The notes under the pieces were generated by a model. The model was not told the origin of the DNA and made no database searches. It was given only the letters and a program-made list of their open reading frames with translations. Positions 8,919 to 36,672 of a stretch of 64,000 bases of DNA are shown one piece after another. The DNA comes from Escherichia phage vB_EcoM_SA21RB. The DNA lies in the sequence record OL960580; one strand, written 5' to 3'. Each line of letters begins with the position of its first letter. The first letter of the stretch is position 1. Position numbers and translations under genes: made by a program.

Positions 8919-9389
8919 TTAATCATGTTTCCACACCCCATCGGTATTTGACCAAAGTCGCTGATTATCTGATCCTCTCCACAGCTTTTTGGTAGGAAGA
9001 TTTTTCTCATACTTCCCATCAATAATAACATCAACATATTTAAGCATTTCTAGTTGTTTAATATCTTCAAATTTATATCCTGTCCACAACCAAATGCTTT
9101 TATTTGGATAAAGATTTTTTACTGTTTGAACAATGCAATGAACAACATCTCTGTTATCAGGATAAAGAGGGTCACCCCCAGTTATAGTTAATCCTTCTAT
9201 ATAATCATTATTTAAACATTCAATTAATTGTTCTAGTGTTTCACCAGTGAATGGAACGCCATTTCTAGCATTCCATGTTGATTTATTATAACATCCTTCA
9301 CATTTATGCAAACATCCCGTAACGAAAAGAACGACCCTGCATCCAGGGCCATTCACAAAATCACAGGGATAAAATCTATCGTAATTCAT
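8919..9389 (-). CDS. nrdG: anaerobic ribonucleotide reductase activating protein (radical SAM)
   Basis: 156 aa; CxxxCxxC radical-SAM cluster motif (GCLHKCEGC); 4-nt overlap with nrdD. Confidence 0.9.
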   Translation of the reverse strand: MNYDRFYPCDFVNGPGCRVVLFVTGCLHKCEGCYNKSTWNARNGVPFTGETLEQLIECLNNDYIEGLTITGGDPLYPDNRDVVHCIVQTVKNLYPNKSIWLWTGYKFEDIKQLEMLKYVDVIIDGKYEKNLPTKKLWRGSDNQRLWSNTDGVWKHD

Positions 9390-11203
9390 TGGTGTTTAAC
9401 CCTATGCATGATTTCTTTATTTTTGCCAAGATTAAATCCGCGTTCGTTCGGATTTCCCAAATAACCACAAGTTCTTCTTATTGTGTTCATCTTTTTAGGA
9501 TCAGTTTCTCCACAAATAGAACAAACAAATCCGTTTTCAGTAGGAGTCATTTCATGGGTACTTCCACATGTAAAACATTTATCTACTGGCATGTTAACAC
9601 CAAAATAATCTAAATGTTGTGCAGCATAATCCCATACAGCCTCAAGACCTTTTAGGTTATTTTTCATATCAGGAAGTTCAACATAAGAAATGTGACCACC
9701 TGTCGCAATGAAATGATATGGGGCTTCTCGAGAAATCTTTTCAAACGGAGTGATATTTTCTTCTACTGAAACGTGGAAACTATTAGTGTACCATCCTTTA
9801 TCAGTAACATCCTTTACACTTCCATATTTTTCGGTATCGAGTTTACAGAAGCGATAACACAAGTTTTCAGCAGGTGTAGAATACAAGCTAAAAGCAAAAC
9901 CAGTTCTTTCAGTCCACTGCTTAAGACGAGCATTCATTTTAGTTAAAATTTCCTGTCCAATATCACGACCGACAAGAATATTCAATTCGTGAATACCGAT
10001 GTATCCTAGGGACACTGAACTTCTACCATTTTTAAATAACTCAATTATGTCATCATCAGGTTTAAGACGAACCCCGAATGCACCTTCTTGGTAAAGAATA
10101 GGAGCAACAGTCGCTTTAACTCCTTTTAAGGAACTAATTCTACACATCAAAGCTTCAAAACACAAATCCATTCGTTCATTGAACAATTCAACAAATTTCT
10201 GTTCATTGAACTGTGTTCCAATATAAGAATCTAATGCAATACGAGGAAGATTCAGTGTTACAACGCCAAGATTATTACGTCCATCAAGAATTTCATTACC
10301 AGTCGAATCTTTCCATACACTCAAGAAACTGCGGCAACCCATTGGAGAAACAGGAATAGATGAACCTGTGATAGCTTTATTGTTCTTAGCCGAAATGATG
10401 TCAGGATACATTCTTTTGCTTGCGCACTCTAAAGCAAGCTGCTTAATATCATAGTTCGGATCGTCTTTATAAAGATTAACACCTTCTTCAACGAACATAA
10501 CAAGTTTAGGGAAAATAGGAGTTATCCCATCACGACCGAGACCTTTAATACGATTTTTCAGAATTGCTTTCTGAATCATTCGTTCAGTCCAGTCAGTTCC
10601 CGTACCAAATGTAATTGTTACAAAAGGCGTTTGCCCGTTTGAACTAAAGAGAGTATTTACTTCATACTCATAAGCTTGAAATGCATCGTATACGTCTTTT
10701 TCTGTTTTAGATTGGGCGTAATTCAACGCATCAGCGATTTGCCATTTTTCTGCGTCCTCAATATGTTTTGCATAGGTGCGTTTAACATAAGGAGAAAGTA
10801 CTTTATCTACATTCGCAAAAGTCGTTCCGCCATATTGGTGGGAAGCAACCTGTGCAGTAATTTGCGCCATAATTGCAGTAGCAACGCCGATTGATTTAGG
10901 AGTTTCAATCTGTGCATTACCGAGCTTAAATCCGTTCTCAAGCATTCCTTTTAAATCTACTAAACAGCAATTAGTAAATGGAAGAGCAGGGGAATAATCA
11001 ATATCGTGGAAATGGATAATTCCGCTTTCATGCGCTTTCATAATAAAAGACGGGACCATATTTTTGGCAATGTGTTTAGACACAATACCAGCCATAAGGT
11101 CCCGTTGAGTTGGAAAAACACGAGAATCTTTATTAGCATTCTCGTTTAAAAGGTCTTTATTAGTTTTATGAATTAGTCCTTCAATTTCTTTTTCAATCGT
11201 CAT
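9386..11203 (-). CDS. nrdD: anaerobic ribonucleoside-triphosphate reductase
   Basis: 605 aa uninterrupted; C-terminal glycyl-radical motif RRTCGYLG and zinc-ribbon cysteines (CFTCGS...CSICG). Confidence 0.92.
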   Translation of the reverse strand: MTIEKEIEGLIHKTNKDLLNENANKDSRVFPTQRDLMAGIVSKHIAKNMVPSFIMKAHESGIIHFHDIDYSPALPFTNCCLVDLKGMLENGFKLGNAQIETPKSIGVATAIMAQITAQVASHQYGGTTFANVDKVLSPYVKRTYAKHIEDAEKWQIADALNYAQSKTEKDVYDAFQAYEYEVNTLFSSNGQTPFVTITFGTGTDWTERMIQKAILKNRIKGLGRDGITPIFPKLVMFVEEGVNLYKDDPNYDIKQLALECASKRMYPDIISAKNNKAITGSSIPVSPMGCRSFLSVWKDSTGNEILDGRNNLGVVTLNLPRIALDSYIGTQFNEQKFVELFNERMDLCFEALMCRISSLKGVKATVAPILYQEGAFGVRLKPDDDIIELFKNGRSSVSLGYIGIHELNILVGRDIGQEILTKMNARLKQWTERTGFAFSLYSTPAENLCYRFCKLDTEKYGSVKDVTDKGWYTNSFHVSVEENITPFEKISREAPYHFIATGGHISYVELPDMKNNLKGLEAVWDYAAQHLDYFGVNMPVDKCFTCGSTHEMTPTENGFVCSICGETDPKKMNTIRRTCGYLGNPNERGFNLGKNKEIMHRVKHQ

Positions 11204-11721: not shown

Positions 11722-12186
11722 TTAAAACGCTCGGTCAGAAAAAGAAATTCGAGTTTCAAGCCATTCAATGTATTCTGCCGCAGCTTGCATCAAATTTCCT
11801 TCGTAATCATCAATATCTTTTTTCAACGCCGATTTAGATAATGCATATGAAATACGTTCACCCTGAAAAGCGGCTTTAGGTTTATGAATAGCTTGATCAA
11901 CTCGTTCTACAACTTCTTCAATTTCGCCATTTTCTACTGATTCAGTATTCCACAAGCACCAATACGTAATTGGCTTATCATAGATGTTAATAACCTTTCC
12001 GTCAGAAAGTTCAATTTCAATAATTCCAGTATCAGGTTCTATATCATCTTCACATTCTTTTGCAAGTTCACGAACTTTAAAGACAGTACCTGCACTAAGT
12101 TCTGGCCAATAATTACATAGCCCTTTATCAGCACGATTAATTCTAAACCACTTATCTACTGTAATCATGTCCCATCTCCATATCAA
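11722..12186 (-). CDS. hypothetical protein (positional equivalent of T4 pin)
   Basis: 154-aa ORF directly upstream of gene 49; identity to Pin not verified. Confidence 0.45.
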   Translation of the reverse strand: MIWRWDMITVDKWFRINRADKGLCNYWPELSAGTVFKVRELAKECEDDIEPDTGIIEIELSDGKVINIYDKPITYWCLWNTESVENGEIEEVVERVDQAIHKPKAAFQGERISYALSKSALKKDIDDYEGNLMQAAAEYIEWLETRISFSDRAF

Positions 12187-12291
12187 TTATGTCATTTATT
12201 GTAGGTTCATTATATACTGTTTCTTCATCAGTGTAAACCGGTTCTTCCGGCTCTGGCTCTACTGTTTCCCATCTAGCCGCCCACCAAGGTT

Positions 12292-12612
12292 TTATAGCGT
12301 AATCCATTCTCGTATTGTCTGAGTTACTACACGTTCACGGGGCTCGACTAGTTCAACAGTCGGAACTGCATAATACCAGTCAGAATGGTAAGAACCTGAG
12401 CGAGATTCATTTACAGACACATGTACGTTATGTTTTGGACTAAAATAAACGCACTGCCGATATTGGCATTTGCCATCTTGTACCCAATCTTCTATTTCGA
12501 CAGGTTTAAGATAATCCGAAAAATCGAAATCATAATTTTCTGAAAATGCATCATGGTCTTCGATGATTTCACTCAGAACTGCATCAACATCTAATTTATT
12601 TTCAATATTCAT
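12292..12612 (-). CDS. hypothetical acidic protein
   Basis: 106-aa ORF. Confidence 0.45.
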   Translation of the reverse strand: MNIENKLDVDAVLSEIIEDHDAFSENYDFDFSDYLKPVEIEDWVQDGKCQYRQCVYFSPKHNVHVSVNESRSGSYHSDWYYAVPTVELVEPRERVVTQTIREWITL

Positions 12613-13515: not shown

Positions 13516-13819
13516 TTTCTTCTCGGTTAAATCGGTGTTTGCAATGACGGCATTTATAACGAAGATTACTAGTCTGCCAATGGACCAATTGAACCTGTTC
13601 AGTACCGCATTCAGGACAATTAGGAACGTTTTTAGAAGCCCTTTCACGCCGTTCAACCATAGCCATAATGGCATCCCAAGCTGGAGGTTTAAAATCTAAA
13701 TCGTCACAACCATGAATCTTTCCACGCATTTCTAAATCGTCTTCTTCACCAGCCATAATAATTTTAATTAGGCTAGAATTACTTGAAGCTGCAATGTCTT
13801 CTAATAGACGCTTTTTCAT
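13502..13819 (-). CDS. zinc-ribbon protein
   Basis: 105 aa; CPECG...(17)...CRHCKH four-cysteine zinc-ribbon signature. Confidence 0.5.
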
Positions 13820-14745
13820 TTTAATACCTCAATAGCATTACGTAAACCATTTGCTTTGGCAGTTAAATCTTTAAGAACTTTAGTATGCTCTTCAATCTGT
13901 TTTTCAACTTCAATTAAGCGAGCATTAAGATATTCGCGTTCTTCGCTCAGGCTATCAACCTTTTCTACTTTAGGTTCTTTTACAATTGGCTTGTATGTAT
14001 TAGGGTTCTTCAGTTTAATTAGAATGCGTGAGCTGTATAACATTGAACCATTATCTTCGGTTTCGTCATACATTTCTACTACGTCCATGATTTTTAGCAT
14101 CATGCGGAGTTTATAAGACAACGAACGAATAGTTTTGTTGTGCTTATTAATTTCTCTAGCTGTCATGGTGCCGAGATTACGTGAGTAATAATAAGGAACC
14201 TGGATATTAATTAATACTGATGAACCACCTGGCATGTGTGTTACTTCATCAGCAATAACCCAGTCCTTAACATGAACTGTATTTGTACGGTCATCACCCG
14301 CGGTAAATAGTTTGCGAGCATGCTTAAAAAGCATATTCACTTGGTCATTGAATTGACAAGCAAATTTATCAGCAAATTTAGTTTCAGGAATGGTAGATAA
14401 CCAATCAGCCAAATGGGTCTTTTTAACATCGTTAACAATAGTAAATTCAACCAAATCAGTTATAGATGTCTCAGATTTAATAAAGCTCGGCTTCATAAAG
14501 TTTTTAATGTTATCGCGAGCTACAGTAGAAGATAACATACGAGAACGTTTAAACCATTGAAGCAAATTGCCCAACGAATGAGAATAAGCGTTTTGAGTAT
14601 CTTTACAGATATGATTTTCCTGGCCAACATATTGAAGGAAATCACGAAGAATATTATTGATTACTGCTCTGTGTCCGATCTGATAATTACGGTGTTTAGT
14701 AATAAGACTGTCAAAATAATCAATATAATGTTTACGAGTTTTCAT
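13816..14745 (-). CDS. hypothetical protein with C-terminal coiled coil (paralog array member 1)
   Basis: 309 aa; N-terminal MKTRKHY like member 3; heptad-like K/E-rich C-terminal 50 aa. Confidence 0.55.
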   Translation of the reverse strand: MKTRKHYIDYFDSLITKHRNYQIGHRAVINNILRDFLQYVGQENHICKDTQNAYSHSLGNLLQWFKRSRMLSSTVARDNIKNFMKPSFIKSETSITDLVEFTIVNDVKKTHLADWLSTIPETKFADKFACQFNDQVNMLFKHARKLFTAGDDRTNTVHVKDWVIADEVTHMPGGSSVLINIQVPYYYSRNLGTMTAREINKHNKTIRSLSYKLRMMLKIMDVVEMYDETEDNGSMLYSSRILIKLKNPNTYKPIVKEPKVEKVDSLSEEREYLNARLIEVEKQIEEHTKVLKDLTAKANGLRNAIEVLK

Positions 14746-14797
14746 ATTCTTCTCACTTGGTTAATGATTTATACTCCGAGCCATCCCTGGCTTTAAA

Positions 14798-15799
14798 TTA
14801 CTTAATTAACTGTAAAGCTTGTTCAAGACGATCAAGACGATTAACGGATTCTTCCCAAATCTTTTTAGCCTGCTCATATTCTTTCTGCGCTTTATTAGAA
14901 ATTTCTAGAACTTCTTTATAAGCTTTTTCTAGTGCAATAACTTCTGGACGAATTTCTACCGGTTCAGGCGAATCGTCAAGATTATCCATTAGTTCCTCAA
15001 GGGTAGTTTCTTCTTTAGGAGTATTCACAATTTCTTCACATTTTTGTTGGTAAATTTCTTTATCAGTCGGTAAATAAGCACATTTCACTTCACGAAGACT
15101 AACTACAATTTTATATCCTTCCCAACCGCATATATTCTTAAAAGGATACGTATGAATATTTTCTACTGTTTCCATACAAAGTAATGCGGTTTCTAATTGA
15201 CGAGTTATAGTGCTAGCAATTGAGAAAAATTTATTAATGTTCTTTTGGTTAGTTTCTGGTGTAAAAAATCCATAATTCACAAAAATAGATACTTTATTTT
15301 TATCAAGTTCATATTCTTTTACGATAATCATATCAGAAGCCAAAGGATGAATTTGACGATAATCGCCATAACATAATTTAGAAGCTGATTTTAGAATTTG
15401 CTTTTTGAAAAGTCTGAAATTACTAATCCAACGACGAGTAAAAATATTCTCAGGGTCTTCTTTATTATTAAGATGATAAGAATTAACATCACCGAACCAA
15501 TTATATCCTACTACATCTTTGGTTCGTTTAATTTCTTTCCCAAAATTACCAAGAATATCCCGATTAACCAAATATGAAAGAAGACGAGACTCTTTAAAGG
15601 TTTTCTTGATAACATCTTTATCTACACGACTAGAAATTTTACGAATTTCATGAATAAATTTAGTAGAAGAAACAATACCTGCATCAACACTATTGAGCCA
15701 TTGATTGATAATAGAAAGAACGCTATTTTGGCCAAACATCGGTATAGCTTTATCATCAATAACGCTATTGAATGATTTGATATATTCGTTACGAGTCAT
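14798..15799 (-). CDS. hypothetical protein with C-terminal coiled coil (paralog array member 2)
   Basis: start moved to ATG at 15799 (AGGAG 6 nt upstream; an early promoter sits inside the longer track ORF); RRWISNFRLFKKQILKSASKL resembles member 3 WRFIALFRRQLKQILSTASRL. Confidence 0.55.
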   Translation of the reverse strand: MTRNEYIKSFNSVIDDKAIPMFGQNSVLSIINQWLNSVDAGIVSSTKFIHEIRKISSRVDKDVIKKTFKESRLLSYLVNRDILGNFGKEIKRTKDVVGYNWFGDVNSYHLNNKEDPENIFTRRWISNFRLFKKQILKSASKLCYGDYRQIHPLASDMIIVKEYELDKNKVSIFVNYGFFTPETNQKNINKFFSIASTITRQLETALLCMETVENIHTYPFKNICGWEGYKIVVSLREVKCAYLPTDKEIYQQKCEEIVNTPKEETTLEELMDNLDDSPEPVEIRPEVIALEKAYKEVLEISNKAQKEYEQAKKIWEESVNRLDRLEQALQLIK

Positions 15800-15824
15800 A
15801 TTAATCTCCTCAGTAGAAAGTAAG

Positions 15825-15858
15825 AACATTATACCACATCCTTGTGGCAAAGTAAACT
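15825..15858 (-). promoter_or_regulatory. T4 early promoter
   Basis: minus strand GTTTAC ... TGGTATAATG. Confidence 0.6.
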
Positions 15859-16885
15859 AGTTCAGTGCATTTAGTGCATTGTTCAGTTTAGAACGTTGCT
15901 TCGTGAGATTTTTGACTTTTTCTTGAGCTTTTTCTAGCATCTTTTCAGCTTCTAGCACTTCATTAGTTGCTTTAACGAGTTCATCATCTACTGCCTTGAT
16001 AGACTTCTCAATCGCATCTGCATGCCATTTTTCAACAGGTTTAAGACTCGGATTTTCAACAGGAAGAAAATTCACTTTATTGAATTTCCATGCATCCTTA
16101 TTACCTGAACTATACATCCAAAATTTAGGATCGTTTGATGAGTAATTGGATAAATTTAAATTTAAGTTATCTTGCACTTCTTGCTTTTTCTCTTGCGTGA
16201 CTTCGTCCTTTCTCAAAAAATCGTATTTAAATGAAACGATCATATCAAGTTCATACGTTGTTGTATGTTCCCAATTTCGCTCAAAACGAGGTAAAATCTT
16301 AGAATGAACTGCAGCAACAACATCCATATACTTAAATGCTTCTGTCAACTGCGATTTAAGGCATTCGCAAATTGAAAGAGAATTTTTTGTATTAGGTTTA
16401 AAGCTAATTCGTGCAGTTCTGTTATTTTCTTTTAATGGTCTTACTTCCATCTGAAGAGTATAACCATCAAATTTCAGGTTCTTTAAGTTAATATCAGAAC
16501 CTTTTAATCGACTCGCAGTTGATAAAATTTGCTTTAATTGTCTACGGAACAGAGCAATAAATCTCCATTCAATACGATAATGATTTGGATTGAAAAATCC
16601 AGATGATAAATCGACCTTACTTTGACCAACGCCTTGAACAAATAGAGGATTTTTATAATCAATAGTTTTACAGAAATCTGTGAGCTGCTCACGAGCCGTC
16701 ATTTGTGTAATATACCCTGCTTTACTAAAATTACGTATCCATTCACTGCTATTTGTATACTTAAAGTGATGAATAACATGATTAACTTTATCAGGGTCTA
16801 AATTATTTTCACACAAAAATGTCATAACATCACGAGTATAGCTGGCATTACGAACCATATCTTCAATTTGAGAACGAGTTTTCAT
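15857..16885 (-). CDS. hypothetical protein with C-terminal coiled coil (paralog array member 3)
   Basis: 342 aa; shares internal motifs with members 2 and 4; C-terminal coiled coil. Confidence 0.55.
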   Translation of the reverse strand: MKTRSQIEDMVRNASYTRDVMTFLCENNLDPDKVNHVIHHFKYTNSSEWIRNFSKAGYITQMTAREQLTDFCKTIDYKNPLFVQGVGQSKVDLSSGFFNPNHYRIEWRFIALFRRQLKQILSTASRLKGSDINLKNLKFDGYTLQMEVRPLKENNRTARISFKPNTKNSLSICECLKSQLTEAFKYMDVVAAVHSKILPRFERNWEHTTTYELDMIVSFKYDFLRKDEVTQEKKQEVQDNLNLNLSNYSSNDPKFWMYSSGNKDAWKFNKVNFLPVENPSLKPVEKWHADAIEKSIKAVDDELVKATNEVLEAEKMLEKAQEKVKNLTKQRSKLNNALNALN

Positions 16886-16893
16886 GGTATTCC

Positions 16894-17784
16894 TTAAGAT
16901 TTAAGTAAATCGACAATTTTAATTAACTTTTCACGCTCAGATTTAGCTTTACTACTCAATCCAGATAGTCTGAAAATTTCATCGTCATATTGTTGAATAG
17001 AAATATTCAGCTCTTCAATCTGCTTATTAAAATAATCAATTTGTTCAGAATGTTTTTCGTTACTACGAACTGGTACAGGTTTTGTAGGCAATGTAGTTGA
17101 ACTGGATTCATTCGGGCGATAAATTAAAATACAACTTGAACCAATAGGGCATTTTGCACCAGATGAATATTCTAATGTTCCAGCTTCTTTTAAAACTTCA
17201 AAAGCTAAACAGAGATGATGCCCCATATTAACATAATCTGTAGAGTGAGCTCTGATGTAATAATCATCTCCACGAATACTAAATTTAAAGCATTTAAGGT
17301 CTTCTGTATTATTGGTCTTAAAAATCATTTGTTTATCTAGACCTTTAGCTAATCGAGCGCCTAATGCTAATAATCGTCGTTGATTTTCCCACAAATCTGC
17401 AATCATTTGGTCGAATGATAATTTCGGCATTAGTCGACCATAAAGGTCATATCCTTTATTATAATTACGAAGGATTTCACTCGCGTTAATACGAGACAAC
17501 GCTCCAATTTTATTAAGGGCTTTCATAATGCGATTAGATAAACTCATTCCAGATCCATTTGTTCGCTGTAAATGTTTTTCTAATCCAAATCCAATATCAA
17601 CTTTAAACTTATCTAAAATTTCAGCATGAACATCTCTGTCGATAACATTCAAATCCAAAGTTGGGTTAAATCTGTGAAAAAATTTATCTGGCTCTCCACG
17701 ACGAAGTACAGTCCATTCATTCATCATTTTTTTATTAACTAATGATTTAATTACTGCATTGACATTATTAATTACTACTGACAT
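16894..17784 (-). CDS. hypothetical protein with C-terminal coiled coil (paralog array member 4)
   Basis: start placed at ATG 17784 (GAGGA upstream); LAKGLDKQMIFKTNNTEDLKCFKF resembles member 3 RLKGSDINLKNLKF. Confidence 0.5.
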   Translation of the reverse strand: MSVVINNVNAVIKSLVNKKMMNEWTVLRRGEPDKFFHRFNPTLDLNVIDRDVHAEILDKFKVDIGFGLEKHLQRTNGSGMSLSNRIMKALNKIGALSRINASEILRNYNKGYDLYGRLMPKLSFDQMIADLWENQRRLLALGARLAKGLDKQMIFKTNNTEDLKCFKFSIRGDDYYIRAHSTDYVNMGHHLCLAFEVLKEAGTLEYSSGAKCPIGSSCILIYRPNESSSTTLPTKPVPVRSNEKHSEQIDYFNKQIEELNISIQQYDDEIFRLSGLSSKAKSEREKLIKIVDLLKS

Positions 17785-17791
17785 ATTTTCC

Positions 17792-18199
17792 TCACTCAAT
17801 TTCAATTTTACTAAATACACAGAATATGATTGAACAGACTACATAAGCGCCACACACGGATTGAACTAATACCATCCCAAAGAACCAAACAATATTATCA
17901 AACAGTGTCTGTTTTACGTCGAAAGGACGTAAACTTACAGTAATATTATCACCTTTTTCTATTGAAGAATACATCTCTGGGGAAATATATTCACTAAATC
18001 TATAACCGTCTTTGAGTTCATATACGGCAATAAACGATAAACTAGACCCCTTTCCTTGTGTTCCTGTAATAGTATTAACTACAGTAACATCATAATCTTT
18101 ATAGTGCATATAATCATTAATTGCGTAATAACCATATGCAACTACTACACATAAACAACATATCAATAAATTCAATCTTTTAATTATCAACTGTTTCAT
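17792..18199 (-). CDS. membrane protein (two hydrophobic segments)
   Basis: 135 aa; N-terminal LLICCLCVVVAYGYYAI and C-terminal FFGMVLVQSVCGAYVVCSIIFCVF hydrophobic helices. Confidence 0.5.
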   Translation of the reverse strand: MKQLIIKRLNLLICCLCVVVAYGYYAINDYMHYKDYDVTVVNTITGTQGKGSSLSFIAVYELKDGYRFSEYISPEMYSSIEKGDNITVSLRPFDVKQTLFDNIVWFFGMVLVQSVCGAYVVCSIIFCVFSKIEIE

Positions 18200-19246: not shown

Positions 19247-20215
19247 TTATTTCAGAAGAGTAACCTCAGCGATTTCTTCCCAACCGTTTTTGTCGGTCAT
19301 AATAAAGTCAGCAAGATAAAGAGCAGTACGCAGTGAAACATTGCGTAAACGATTAACATTGACTTTCATCCATGATAATGCTTTATAAGTTTCTTCATCA
19401 GAAAGACCGCGCTTTTGCATCATGTCAGTTGAAAGAATAACATCTTCAACCCTAACCATAATTTCTTCATTAGTGTGAACACCCAAATCCAAATAAACTG
19501 AGCGGGACACTAATGCTTGTAAATGTGGAGCAAGTTTAGTACCACGGTCTAATTCGCGGTCAATGTCAACGTTTGTGATAAAAACAATCGTTCCTTTAAA
19601 TTCAAACTCGCGCTCAATGCCTTTTTCTTCTAAGTAAGAAGATGCAGTGCTCCAGCAGACTTTACGGGTCTCTCCAGTGTCCAGAGCAGCTTTCAGAAGA
19701 TTAAGAATGTCCATATCAGAGAAAACATCCACATCATCAATCAAAAGGACAGAATTCTCTTCACGATTATTCCAAAGTTGTTCATAAAGACCGATACCGG
19801 AGATTTTACCGTTAATGCTTTTATATTCAATGTATCCATTATCATTTGCTTTATTTAAAGCTTTATCTAAAGAATACGTTTTACCAATACCCGCCGCACC
19901 AGAGATAATTAATGAACGAATGTTTCCGTTAATAATACCATTCGTCATCATTCCCATAACATTAAATCTTTTATTAATGCGGGTTTTCATATCTTCATAC
20001 GATTCTTTAACTTCTTCAACTTTTACACCATCATATGAAATGTCTGATTTGTAAACCCAAACACCACGACGTTTACCGTCAATTTCAACAAAAACTTTAC
20101 CATCTCCTTGTGCATCTACCGGAGCATTATCTGGGAACCATTCACCTAAGAGCTCAAAAGTTCCAGAGATTTCTTTACCGAAGTAGATACCCTTATTGAT
20201 AGTTACAGTTTTCAT
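19247..20215 (-). CDS. P-loop (AAA-like) ATPase
   Basis: 322 aa; Walker A GAAGIGKT, Walker B LLIDDVD, sensor-1-like VFITN. Confidence 0.65.
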   Translation of the reverse strand: MKTVTINKGIYFGKEISGTFELLGEWFPDNAPVDAQGDGKVFVEIDGKRRGVWVYKSDISYDGVKVEEVKESYEDMKTRINKRFNVMGMMTNGIINGNIRSLIISGAAGIGKTYSLDKALNKANDNGYIEYKSINGKISGIGLYEQLWNNREENSVLLIDDVDVFSDMDILNLLKAALDTGETRKVCWSTASSYLEEKGIEREFEFKGTIVFITNVDIDRELDRGTKLAPHLQALVSRSVYLDLGVHTNEEIMVRVEDVILSTDMMQKRGLSDEETYKALSWMKVNVNRLRNVSLRTALYLADFIMTDKNGWEEIAEVTLLK

Positions 20216-20592: not shown

Positions 20593-21606
20593 TCATTTAT
20601 AATAACTTCGGTGGTTTTCAAGATAGACCTTCTCAAGGAAGTCATCCCAGAAACCCATGTCCACTTTTTGCTGCATACCGTTCTTAGAAGCTTCAGTAGA
20701 TGCTGCTTCTACTTGATCGACCACATCTTCCAAAAACTCTTGAACTGTTTTAAATGGATGTTTACCCAACTTCACGTCGAGAATAAATGGAGCATCTTGG
20801 AGTGGATAAACCAAGTCACCAGTTTTGTAAATTTCCAATAGTTGAAGTCCACCACGACAAGCATGGCTCAGAGCTTTCCAGTCAATGCCTTCATTGGCTT
20901 CGGCCTTACGAGCACGTTCACCGTATTCAGCATCTAATTTGTTCAGTGACTGTTTAAGCTCAATAAGAGAAAGAGTTGTCTGATATTTACGACCCAACAC
21001 AGTGTAGAACGTTTGTGGGCCTGTTTTCTCATGATTATGGAACACCCATTCACAGAATTCGTTTTCTGGAAGACGATGCTTAATATCTTCAACTTTAGTG
21101 CGACGTTGCTTAATGGAACCGTCTTCTTGGTAATCAACCCATTGCTCAGGGATTTGATTAACTACTTTCAATACATCACGTAATGCAGCCAAACGAGAAC
21201 CCTTGACACCGTATTTAGAAGCTTGCTTGCGAACATATCCTAAATAGGATTTCATGTTAGTCGTATAAAAACGAGAACGATTGTCTTGAATAAACTTCCA
21301 CACATCAGGCAAATCAGATTTAACCACTAGTTCAGGTGGAGTGTGAAGCATATCCAATGCTACAGTTTCACCATCTGCTGCTAATTTAAAGAAATATTTA
21401 AGACTGTATAGTTCATGGTCAATATCATCTTTAGTGTTTTTAGATGATGTGTTGTTAGTGTTTTTACTCATGTGTTCTTTGACATTTCCGATAAGAATAT
21501 CGCGAGCAGGAGGAACAAAGATTTCTTTAAAATCTACATCAGATTCTGGAGTAGAAGTTCCATAAAGATGACTACCAAAATAGCTTTTCATTACTGTTTT
21601 CATCAT
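20593..21606 (-). CDS. nucleotidyltransferase-fold protein (minimal-NTase-like N-terminus)
   Basis: 337 aa; N-terminal GSHLYGTSTPESDVDF fits the pol-beta-superfamily GS...[DE]h[DE]h signature; followed by a hairpin terminator. Confidence 0.55.
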   Translation of the reverse strand: MMKTVMKSYFGSHLYGTSTPESDVDFKEIFVPPARDILIGNVKEHMSKNTNNTSSKNTKDDIDHELYSLKYFFKLAADGETVALDMLHTPPELVVKSDLPDVWKFIQDNRSRFYTTNMKSYLGYVRKQASKYGVKGSRLAALRDVLKVVNQIPEQWVDYQEDGSIKQRRTKVEDIKHRLPENEFCEWVFHNHEKTGPQTFYTVLGRKYQTTLSLIELKQSLNKLDAEYGERARKAEANEGIDWKALSHACRGGLQLLEIYKTGDLVYPLQDAPFILDVKLGKHPFKTVQEFLEDVVDQVEAASTEASKNGMQQKVDMGFWDDFLEKVYLENHRSYYK

Positions 21607-36108: not shown

Positions 36109-36672
36109 TTATTTATCTAGTTTAGTTATTATAGCTTCTGCGGCAGCTTTTAGCTTAGATGCGGTGTTAATACGATTTTTAATTTCAGTATACGCATCGC
36201 CAAGAACATCAAGGCTATCAGAATAAACACTTACACTATTGCGTTCGCTATTTGAAATAGAACCTTTAGTTTTACGATCAAAATCGGTGTACACGTCTTG
36301 AAGATCACGGGCTGCCTTCTTTGCATCATCCAATGCGTCAAGAGCTTTATTCAAAGCATTAACGTATTTTTTAGTGTCAAACATATTCTTAGAAATTTTA
36401 ACAGGTGCGCGTTCAGGAGTAGCTAATGTAGATTTAGGAACCTGAGCGCCAGATGCCAATTTCTTAGAAATTTTGAAAAACGCTTTATTGAATTTATTTT
36501 CTTGACTCATCGTAAAAGAACTATTATCGATGTTGTACATTTCAATAGCTTTAGCTTTCCACTTAAGAAAATCGCCGCGGTCTTTTGGGTCCAAGTGGAA
36601 GAATACTTTAGTAAGATCTGCTTCAGATGGTAATTTTGCTGCTTCGGTTAAAAATTCGGCATAGGTTTTCAT
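36109..36672 (-). CDS. internal-protein-like protein with capsid targeting sequence
   Basis: 187 aa; N-terminal MKTYAEFLTEAAK resembles the T4 internal-protein targeting peptide; terminator hairpin downstream. Confidence 0.55.
   Translation of the reverse strand: MKTYAEFLTEAAKLPSEADLTKVFFHLDPKDRGDFLKWKAKAIEMYNIDNSSFTMSQENKFNKAFFKISKKLASGAQVPKSTLATPERAPVKISKNMFDTKKYVNALNKALDALDDAKKAARDLQDVYTDFDRKTKGSISNSERNSVSVYSDSLDVLGDAYTEIKNRINTASKLKAAAEAIITKLDK

What the first reader, a model, noticed from the sequence alone, without database searches (positions are those of the whole stretch)
13816..17820. Tandem array of four paralogous 300-350-aa genes, each ending in a coiled coil
Four consecutive minus-strand genes (13816-14745, 14798-15799, 15857-16885, 16894-17784) share blocks such as RRWISNFRLFKKQILKSASKL versus WRFIALFRRQLKQILSTASRL and LAKGLDKQMIFKTNNTEDLKCFKF versus RLKGSDINLKNLKF, and all end in about 40-50 residues of K/E-rich heptad-like sequence. 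I recognise no enzymatic motif. Tandem diversified paralogs in a compact lytic genome suggest a family under diversifying pressure, for example variable effector heads on a common oligomerisation stalk. The relationship of the first member to the other three is the weakest.
Basis: seen in the sequence. Interest (0 to 1): 0.55.

Follow-up and report, generated by a model that had tools for sequence, protein, structure and literature searches.

The report
T4 nrdC.3–nrdC.6 head-and-stalk paralog array
Four neighbouring early genes of a T4-like phage (nrdC.3 to nrdC.6) prove to be diverged copies of one phage-only protein with a basic globular head, a floppy linker and a coiled-coil tail; because one of them (nrdC.5) is already known to switch off the bacterial Dsr1 immune enzyme, the other three are good candidates for further immune-evasion factors.

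Summary
The window is a Tequatrovirus, and the four minus-strand genes are the orthologues of T4 nrdC.3, nrdC.4, nrdC.5 and nrdC.6 (309, 333, 342 and 296 aa).

All four end in a significant heptad-repeat helix. All four belong to one narrow superfamily restricted to T4-like phages (Straboviridae), although Pfam and PHROGs file them as three unrelated families.

- nrdC.3–nrdC.4 homology is direct (hhalign 98.5%).
- nrdC.4–nrdC.5 is supported by profile comparison (about 90%, with tails removed).
- nrdC.6 joins only through bridging homologues from other T4-like phages. A bridge profile matches all four heads at 85–97%. The AlphaFold topology is also shared.

No enzyme fold or motif was found. 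The genes are not uncharacterised as a group: T4 nrdC.5, 94% identical to the window copy, was shown genetically to counteract the SIR2 defence protein Dsr1 (eLife 2022).

Within each orthologue group the heads diverge faster than the tails. dN/dS is several-fold above that of neighbouring core genes but stays below 1. Copy number runs 1, 3 or 4 across genera.

Best reading: an expanded family of oligomeric, non-enzymatic counter-defence binders. Interest is moderate.

The parts
13816..14745 (-). nrdC.3 orthologue (309 aa), a superfamily member closest to nrdC.4. This is the non-T4 allele: 62% identical to T4 nrdC.3 and 75% to the Mosigvirus copy.
   Evidence: (phrog_1435)
14798..15799 (-). 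nrdC.4 orthologue (333 aa; ATG start with GAGGAG RBS), 97% identical to T4 nrdC.4
   Evidence: near-identical homologues carry PF26897
15857..16885 (-). nrdC.5 orthologue (342 aa), Pfam DUF7235, 94% identical to T4 NrdC.5, the published anti-Dsr1 factor
   Evidence: (427 bits)
16894..17784 (-). nrdC.6 orthologue (296 aa; ATG start with GAGGA RBS), the most divergent member of the superfamily
   Evidence: phrog_2257; PF26899
13819..13947 (-). nrdC.3 C-terminal heptad-repeat helix (aa 267-309)
14801..14935 (-). nrdC.4 C-terminal heptad-repeat helix (aa 289-333)
15860..16039 (-). nrdC.5 C-terminal helix (aa 283-342; AlphaFold gives a single helix 284-341)
16897..17058 (-). nrdC.6 C-terminal helices (aa 243-296; AlphaFold H243-272 and H278-295)
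16469..16573 (-). nrdC.5 signature helix pair 'F..F(R)....L...A.RL..G..(R)' (aa 105-139), the best-conserved block of the superfamily. Equivalent blocks: nrdC.3 at 14287-14376, nrdC.4 at 15356-15442, nrdC.6 at 17308-17415.
15828..15856 (-). T4 early-promoter-like site (TTTACT, 17 nt, TATAAT with TG) between nrdC.5 and nrdC.4. It is annotated as an early promoter at the same place in phage SA20RB.

Best explanation
The four genes are an expanded family of early-expressed, non-enzymatic counter-defence proteins specific to T4-like phages.

Each protein has three parts: a basic alpha/beta head (pI about 9), a disordered linker, and a 45-60-residue heptad helix that most likely makes it a homo-oligomer.

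The proposed mode of action is stoichiometric binding. The oligomeric heads would bind a host immune protein, or the phage component it senses, early in infection, before the trigger appears.

For the third gene this is anchored in experiment. T4 NrdC.5, 94% identical to the window copy, restores plating of a deletion mutant on cells carrying the SIR2 NADase Dsr1. Dsr1's sensor is now known to recognise phage major capsid protein. The inferred mechanism is therefore that NrdC.5 occupies or locks the Dsr1 sensor, in the way DSAD1 does for DSR2.

nrdC.3, nrdC.4 and nrdC.6 are inferred to do the same against other, unidentified targets.

What is shown: gene identity, paralogy, architecture, the evolutionary pattern, and the published T4 phenotype. 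What is inferred: oligomerisation, direct binding, and any anti-defence role for the other three genes.
For: - Identity with T4 nrdC.3-nrdC.6.
- The published genetic anti-Dsr1 activity of T4 nrdC.5 supplied in trans (PMC9391042).
- Dsr1's sensor recognises phage major capsid protein (PMC13581612).
- One superfamily: hhalign and bridging profiles, the same secondary-structure order in the two AlphaFold models, and Foldseek hits shared by both models (Mineola A0A2Z4QAR2, Merlin A0A0K1LMI4, Serratia PS2 A0A023W506).
- Significant heptad tails.
- Heads diverge faster than tails.
- dN/dS is several-fold above that of core neighbours.
- nrdC.3 is dimorphic within the genus.
- Copy number is 1 in Kanagawavirus and Jiaodavirus, 3 in Mosigvirus, Dhakavirus and Gaprivervirus, and 4 in Tequatrovirus.
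- The family is extremely narrow: 27 cluster representatives among 1.84 billion proteins.
- The genes lie in an early region that also holds the Lon inhibitor PinA and the reported anti-OLD factor gp49.2.
Against: - Only nrdC.5 has any functional data, and that is a plating phenotype. No binding, structure or NAD measurement is available.
- The extent of the deletion in the T4 mutant used is not given in text, so I cannot say whether nrdC.5 acted without its paralogs.
- dN/dS below 1 does not show an arms race.
- nrdC.6 is under fairly strong constraint (0.04-0.16), which fits a conserved target as well as it fits a defence target.
- The basic heads could instead bind nucleic acid.
Confidence: 0.55

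Rival explanations
1. The four proteins assemble through their related tails into one hetero-oligomeric complex that acts as a single machine. In that case nrdC.5's anti-Dsr1 effect would be a property of the complex, not of four independent inhibitors.
For: - The genes are adjacent, on the same strand and apparently co-transcribed.
- The tails share heptad register and the terminal L..A...LK motif.
- Tails are the most conserved part of each protein.
Against: - Copy number and composition vary between genera: 1, 3 or 4 members, with either nrdC.3 or nrdC.4 present.
- The T4 reference carries a frameshift that removes the nrdC.6 tail. One contig has nrdC.4 frameshifted.
- A natural nrdC.5::nrdC.3 fusion lacking nrdC.4 exists in a full-length phage genome.
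- Tail sequences are specific to each paralog.
- nrdC.5 alone supplied in trans was sufficient to rescue plating, although the state of the other three genes in that mutant is unknown.
Confidence: 0.12
2. They are host-takeover or nucleic-acid-binding factors, for example binding host RNA polymerase, the nucleoid or RNA. Any effect on Dsr1 would then be indirect, such as changing the timing or amount of the trigger or NAD metabolism.
For: - The heads are basic, pI 9.1-9.4.
- The genes have early-gene placement.
- dN/dS is below 1.
Against: - The genes are dispensable on laboratory hosts and are lost in evolved T4 without cost on MG1655.
- Their presence, absence and allele replacement look like accessory host-range genes rather than core takeover genes.
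- The Dsr1 phenotype is specific: deleting dsr1 restores plating.
Confidence: 0.18
3. The similarity among the four is not homology. It is convergence or compositional bias from K/E-rich coiled coils attached to unrelated heads.
For: - Pairwise BLAST is non-significant for five of the six pairs.
- Pfam and PHROGs keep three separate families.
- The direct nrdC.6-versus-others hhalign probability is below 15%.
Against: - With tails deleted, nrdC.3-nrdC.4 stays at 98.3% and nrdC.4-nrdC.5 at 90.8%.
- Bridging heads score 13.6-29.6 bits against both the nrdC.5-head and nrdC.6-head profiles, while shuffles reach at most 8-9.5 bits.
- The bridge head profile hits all four heads at 85.5-96.7% in the same register.
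- The conserved blocks are collinear.
- The order of secondary-structure elements is identical.
- The two models share Foldseek neighbours.
- The genes occupy the same locus next to nrdC in all genera.
Confidence: 0.05

Closest known systems
T4 NrdC.5 (Pfam DUF7235 / PF23882), anti-Dsr1 counter-defence gene (Srikant, Guegler & Laub, eLife 2022, PMC9391042)
   Same: The third gene is its orthologue: 94% identity, same position, and a full-length DUF7235 match at 427 bits. The other three genes are remote paralogs of it.
   Different: Activity was shown only for the T4 allele against ECOR17 Dsr1. The window allele differs at about 6% of residues and has not been tested. nrdC.3, nrdC.4 and nrdC.6 do not match the DUF7235 model itself and have no reported phenotype.
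DSAD1, the SPbeta-type phage inhibitor of DSR2 that binds the sensor domain (PMC10973363, PMC11087589)
   Same: It is the functional analogue: a small non-enzymatic phage protein that neutralises a SIR2-domain NADase defence whose C-terminal sensor recognises a phage structural protein.
Pfam PF26897 (nrdC.3/nrdC.4 type) and PF26899 (nrdC.6 type); PHROGs 1435, 2351 and 2257
   Same: Each window protein falls squarely into one of these families of unknown function.
   Different: The databases treat them as three unrelated families. The analysis here unites them, together with single-copy proteins of Kanagawavirus, Jiaodavirus and other T4-like phages, into one superfamily.
Other clustered anti-defence genes of T-even phages: the dmd-tifA-adfA 'anti-TA island', and gp49.2 (anti-OLD) just downstream of this array
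   Same: All are early, dispensable accessory genes, clustered, variable between relatives, and each neutralises a specific host defence.
   Different: Those islands are collections of unrelated small proteins. Here the cluster arose by duplication of one 300-aa head-and-stalk gene.

Membership tests
T4 NrdC.5 / DUF7235 (anti-Dsr1) | Full-length match to Pfam PF23882 above the gathering score | tested here: met
   The third gene scores 427.3 bits against a cut-off of 30, E=4.8e-128. The other three genes do not match this model.
T4 NrdC.5 / DUF7235 (anti-Dsr1) | Orthology to T4 nrdC.5 (high identity, same position between nrdC.4 and nrdC.6) | tested here: met
   94.4% identity over 342 aa. Gene order is identical to NC_000866.
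T4 NrdC.5 / DUF7235 (anti-Dsr1) | Restores phage growth on cells expressing Dsr1 | not testable with these tools
   Shown only for the T4 allele in PMC9391042. This needs a plaque assay with the window allele.
nrdC.3-nrdC.6 head-and-stalk superfamily (defined here) | Homologous head domain with the collinear blocks '(S)R.LS...A...L..F', 'F..F......L...A.RL..G..R' and 'QL..AL..M..V' | tested here: met
   Tail-less hhalign gives nrdC.3-nrdC.4 98.3% and nrdC.4-nrdC.5 90.8%. The bridge head profile against the four heads gives 85.5, 96.7, 96.0 and 95.6%. See also alignment A5. The direct nrdC.6-to-others comparison alone is not significant.
nrdC.3-nrdC.6 head-and-stalk superfamily (defined here) | Shared fold topology: helix pair, beta-hairpin, helix, beta-hairpin, disordered linker, long C-terminal helix | tested here: inconclusive
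   The order of elements is the same in the AlphaFold models of nrdC.5 and nrdC.6, and the two models share Foldseek neighbours.
Coiled-coil oligomerisation domain | Heptad a/d hydrophobic periodicity over at least 5 heptads in a continuous helix | tested here: met
   0-10 of 2000 shuffles reach the observed a/d excess in the last 42 residues of each protein. Long helices are predicted with pLDDT of about 80-90.
Coiled-coil oligomerisation domain | Actual self-association and its stoichiometry | not testable with these tools
   No multimer prediction or experiment was available. A monomeric single alpha-helix is not excluded (one search lists such helices among the matches).
DSAD1-like anti-DSR inhibitors | Sequence or fold similarity to DSAD1 | tested here: not met
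Enzymatic effector (any known catalytic family) | Match to a catalytic domain or fold | tested here: not met

The most novel reading that the evidence does not exclude
Probability: 0.12. Interest if true: 0.8.

Novelty: new member of a known kind. Interest (0 to 1): 0.45.

Why it matters
T4 is the best-studied lytic phage, yet nrdC.3, nrdC.4 and nrdC.6 are still annotated as hypothetical, and the mechanism of NrdC.5 against Dsr1 is unknown.

Showing that the four genes are one head-and-stalk family does three things:
- It turns one orphan anti-Dsr1 gene into a family with three ready candidates for new counter-defence activities.
- It supplies a domain map for experiments: conserved helix-pair block, variable head, linker and tail.
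- It documents expansion from 1 to 3 to 4 copies, head-biased divergence and allele replacement, the kind of pattern expected for host-range determinants.

It also indicates that three database families (PF23882, PF26897, PF26899) should be placed in one clan.

Tried and rejected
- Pairwise BLASTP linked only nrdC.3 and nrdC.4. Direct hhalign of nrdC.6 against the other families stayed below 15% even with about 100-sequence alignments.
- Pfam, NCBIfam and PADLOC gave no functional domain. A PHL-domain hit, an integrase-SAM hit and a BrxC hit are all below threshold and were rejected.
- PDB sequence-profile searches found nothing useful.
- The BFVD search with the nrdC.5 model did not return nrdC.3/nrdC.4-type entries, so fold-level confirmation for those two rests on sequence profiles only.
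- I looked for further family members elsewhere in the 64-kb window and found none. nrdC.8 and ORF 36109-36672 give only weak tail-like scores.
- I tried to learn which genes the T4 evo 3 deletion removed, but that information is only in a figure.
- I tried to place the P0279 head-swap chimera. It is a single 803-bp metagenome contig, its head has no phage-database match, and it cannot be told apart from an assembly chimera.
- Literature searches for nrdC.3, nrdC.4, nrdC.6, DUF7235 or 'anti-Dsr1' found no functional work beyond the eLife paper.
Full report
**What the region is.** The window is a Tequatrovirus. The 4.8-kb stretch around the finding is 96.9% identical to phage vB_EcoM_SA20RB and about 94% identical to T4, and 740 phage records carry it. 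The four minus-strand ORFs lie at 13816-14745, 14798-15799, 15857-16885 and 16894-17784. They encode 309, 333, 342 and 296 aa, and the starts of the second and fourth are backed by ribosome-binding sites. They correspond one-to-one, in order, to T4 nrdC.3, nrdC.4, nrdC.5 and nrdC.6, all annotated as hypothetical in NC_000866. Identity to the T4 proteins is 62%, 97%, 94% and 98%. A T4 early-promoter-like site lies between nrdC.5 and nrdC.4 and is annotated as an early promoter at the same place in SA20RB.

**Coiled-coil ends.** In each protein the last 42 residues carry an a/d hydrophobic heptad pattern that only 0-10 of 2000 shuffles of the same residues reach. The register counted from the C-terminus is almost the same in all four. 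The tails are enriched in charged residues, 36-40% against 27-29% for the whole proteins. AlphaFold2 with family alignments predicts a single helix 284-341 for nrdC.5, preceded by a disordered stretch at 229-282. For nrdC.6 it predicts helices 243-272 and 278-295, preceded by a disordered stretch at 227-242.

**Direct tests of paralogy.** Pairwise BLASTP supports only nrdC.3-nrdC.4 (26% over 231 residues, E=1e-7); the other five pairs are not significant. PHROGs puts nrdC.3 and nrdC.4 in one family (phrog_1435) and the other two in separate ones (phrog_2351, phrog_2257). Pfam has three families: DUF7235/PF23882 for nrdC.5, and PF26897 and PF26899 for the others. I collected diverged orthologues from Mosigvirus, Dhakavirus and Gaprivervirus and from the large protein collection. 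With those, profile-profile comparison gives nrdC.3-nrdC.4 at 98.5%, nrdC.4-nrdC.5 at 87.6% (E=3.5e-6 over 246 columns) and nrdC.3-nrdC.5 at 76.5%. nrdC.6 scores below 15% against every other family. Removing the coiled-coil tails does not weaken the signal: nrdC.3-nrdC.4 is 98.3% and nrdC.4-nrdC.5 is 90.8% with E=1.2e-6. Among all 173 ORFs of the window, the nrdC.3, nrdC.4 and nrdC.5 profiles pick each other as the best non-self hits, and no further member exists in the window.

**How nrdC.6 joins the family.** An exhaustive HMMER search with a merged nrdC.3/nrdC.4/nrdC.5 profile found only 27 cluster representatives among 1.84 billion proteins. Several of them are 310-350-aa proteins that carry nrdC.6-type motifs. 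With tails deleted, three bridge heads score against both the nrdC.6-head and nrdC.5-head profiles, while the best of 1400 shuffled controls reaches 9.5 and 8.0 bits:

| Bridge head | vs nrdC.6-head profile (bits) | vs nrdC.5-head profile (bits) |
|---|---|---|
| P0275 | 26.6 | 13.6 |
| P0286 | 24.2 | 19.1 |
| P0274 | 15.3 | 29.6 |

A profile built from nine bridging proteins matches all four window families with the same register:

| Family | Full length | Heads only |
|---|---|---|
| nrdC.3 | 95.8% | 85.5% |
| nrdC.4 | 97.8% | 96.7% |
| nrdC.5 | 99.0% | 96.0% |
| nrdC.6 | 98.1% | 95.6% |

**Structural agreement.** The two AlphaFold models have the same order of elements after the variable N-terminus: helix pair, beta-hairpin, helix, beta-hairpin, disordered linker, long helix. 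In the viral structure library they share neighbours, all uncharacterised 300-370-aa proteins of other T4-like phages:
- Mineola A0A2Z4QAR2: E=3.7e-6 for the nrdC.5 model and 9.5e-4 for the nrdC.6 model.
- Merlin A0A0K1LMI4: E=1.3e-3 for the nrdC.5 model and 6.3e-4 for the nrdC.6 model.
- Serratia PS2 A0A023W506: E=1.9e-3 for the nrdC.5 model and 1.8e-2 for the nrdC.6 model.

The four genes are therefore paralogs. The divergent one is the fourth (nrdC.6), not the first.

**Evolutionary pattern.**
- *Copy number.* More distant T4-like genera have one member next to nrdC. In Kanagawavirus, IME523 gp085 matches both the nrdC.5 profile (29.7 bits) and the nrdC.6 profile (28.0 bits); Jiaodavirus JD18 gp070 is the equivalent gene. 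Mosigvirus, Dhakavirus and Gaprivervirus have three members: nrdC.6-like, nrdC.5-like, and either nrdC.3 or nrdC.4. Tequatrovirus has four.
- *Head versus tail.* Within each orthologue group the tail is more conserved than the head. Head and tail identities are 60% and 93% for nrdC.3 (window vs T4), 43% and 67% for nrdC.4 (vs Bp7), 37% and 62% for nrdC.5 (vs P0057), and 32% and 61% for nrdC.6 (vs Mosigvirus).
- *Alleles.* nrdC.3 is dimorphic inside Tequatrovirus, with classes at about 95% and about 61% identity to the window copy.
- *Selection.* Gene-wide dN/dS against close relatives is 0.13-0.33 for nrdC.3, 0.17-0.24 for nrdC.4, 0.15-0.25 for nrdC.5 and 0.04-0.16 for nrdC.6. The values are about 0.02 for gp49 and nrdC, and 0.01-0.09 for nrdC.10 and nrdC.11. 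That is relaxed or episodic constraint, not gene-wide positive selection.
- *Rearrangements.* Natural variants include an in-frame nrdC.5::nrdC.3 fusion that lacks nrdC.4, a frameshifted nrdC.4, and a frameshift that removes the nrdC.6 tail in the T4 reference.

The literature gives one firm anchor. In T4, a compensatory deletion that removed nrdC.5 abolished growth on ECOR17. Deleting the host dsr1 gene restored growth, cloned dsr1 protected MG1655 against the mutant, and nrdC.5 expressed in trans restored plating (PMC9391042). Dsr1 is a SIR2-domain protein whose sensor domain, shared with Avs7, recognises phage major capsid protein (PMC13581612). A 2026 paper still calls DSR1 poorly characterised. 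I found no description of how NrdC.5 works, and no functional data on nrdC.3, nrdC.4 or nrdC.6. The surrounding early region also encodes the Lon inhibitor PinA and gp49.2, recently reported as an OLD inhibitor.

**Most likely mechanism (confidence about 0.55).** These are early, non-enzymatic, probably homo-oligomeric binders. Their heads block a host immune sensor, or mask its trigger, before late proteins appear. NrdC.5 would act on Dsr1 by analogy with DSAD1 acting on DSR2. The three paralogs are candidate inhibitors of other systems. The rivals are a single hetero-oligomeric complex (0.12), host-takeover or nucleic-acid-binding factors with an indirect effect on Dsr1 (0.18), and non-homology (0.05, effectively excluded by the tail-less tests).

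**Comparison with what is known, and verdict.** The objects are known genes, and one has a known phenotype. What is new here is the unification of three database families into one head-and-stalk superfamily restricted to T4-like phages (Straboviridae), its expansion history, and the domain-wise divergence pattern. I rate this as new members of a known kind (phage-encoded protein inhibitors of defence). Interest is moderate at 0.45: it is not surprising to a specialist, but it yields directly testable candidates in the model phage.

Noticed in passing
window 16894-17020, compared with L001 (T4 NC_000866) 11997-12200: The T4 reference nrdC.6 has a single-base deletion relative to the window (gagctgAatattt vs gagctg-atattt). 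It frameshifts the last ~37 codons and removes the coiled-coil tail, giving 275 aa instead of 296 aa. The downstream DNA, including the original stop codon, is conserved, and another 'T4' record (KJ477685) encodes the intact form. This is either a laboratory-strain mutation or a sequencing error.
   Followed up: partly
window 13816-14745 (nrdC.3): nrdC.3 is dimorphic within Tequatrovirus, with classes at about 93-98% and about 60-62% amino-acid identity to the window copy. The window allele is closer to Mosigvirus copies (74-78%) than to T4's. The divergence is concentrated in the head (60%), while the tail is 93% identical. This suggests allele replacement by recombination.
   Followed up: partly
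P0056 (299 aa, from a 167-kb phage contig): A natural in-frame fusion of nrdC.5 residues ~147-275 to nrdC.3 residues ~136-309, with nrdC.4 deleted. The junction is at ...WKFNKVN|MLFKHARKLF..., at a short 'VN' microhomology.
   Followed up: no
P0279 / L014 (803-bp metagenome contig): An unknown 120-aa N-terminal segment (GC 41-44%, no match in the phage collection) is joined to an exact nrdC.5 tail, followed by the start of nrdC.4. This is either a real head replacement on the nrdC.5 stalk or an assembly chimera.
   Followed up: partly
P0283 (225 aa): A copy of T4 nrdC.3 in which essentially all differences are of the C-to-T type (P>L, T>I, S>F/L, A>V, H>Y). It looks like an assembly of bisulfite-converted or deaminated reads from a T4 spike-in, not a natural variant.
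   Followed up: no
window 9386-11203: nrdD is a continuous 605-aa ORF. This phage lacks the group I intron with I-TevII that interrupts nrdD in T4.
   Followed up: no
window 11722-12186 and 12292-12612: Just downstream of the array lie the orthologues of PinA (the Lon protease inhibitor) and gp49.2. gp49.2 was reported in 2026 as an inhibitor of the OLD defence nuclease (PMC13096335). The four genes therefore sit in a region rich in accessory and anti-defence genes.
   Followed up: partly
L006 7084-8083: In one IMG/VR Tequatrovirus contig, nrdC.4 is split by a frameshift near codon 179. It is either a pseudogene or a sequencing error.
   Followed up: no
N-termini of nrdC.3, nrdC.4 and nrdC.5 (window 14734-14745, 15791-15799, 16874-16885): The N-terminal sequence M-(x)-T-R is invariant in nrdC.3, nrdC.4 and nrdC.5 homologues and in several bridging proteins, but is absent from nrdC.6. 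This is unexplained; it could be a protein-level or an mRNA-level signal.
   Followed up: no
window 19247-20215 and 20593-21606: The upstream neighbours nrdC.10 (a P-loop / STAND-like AAA ATPase with weak matches) and nrdC.11 (an RlaP-type nucleotidyltransferase, PF10127) are under much stronger constraint than the array (dN/dS 0.01-0.09). They are conserved next to it in all genera examined.
   Followed up: no
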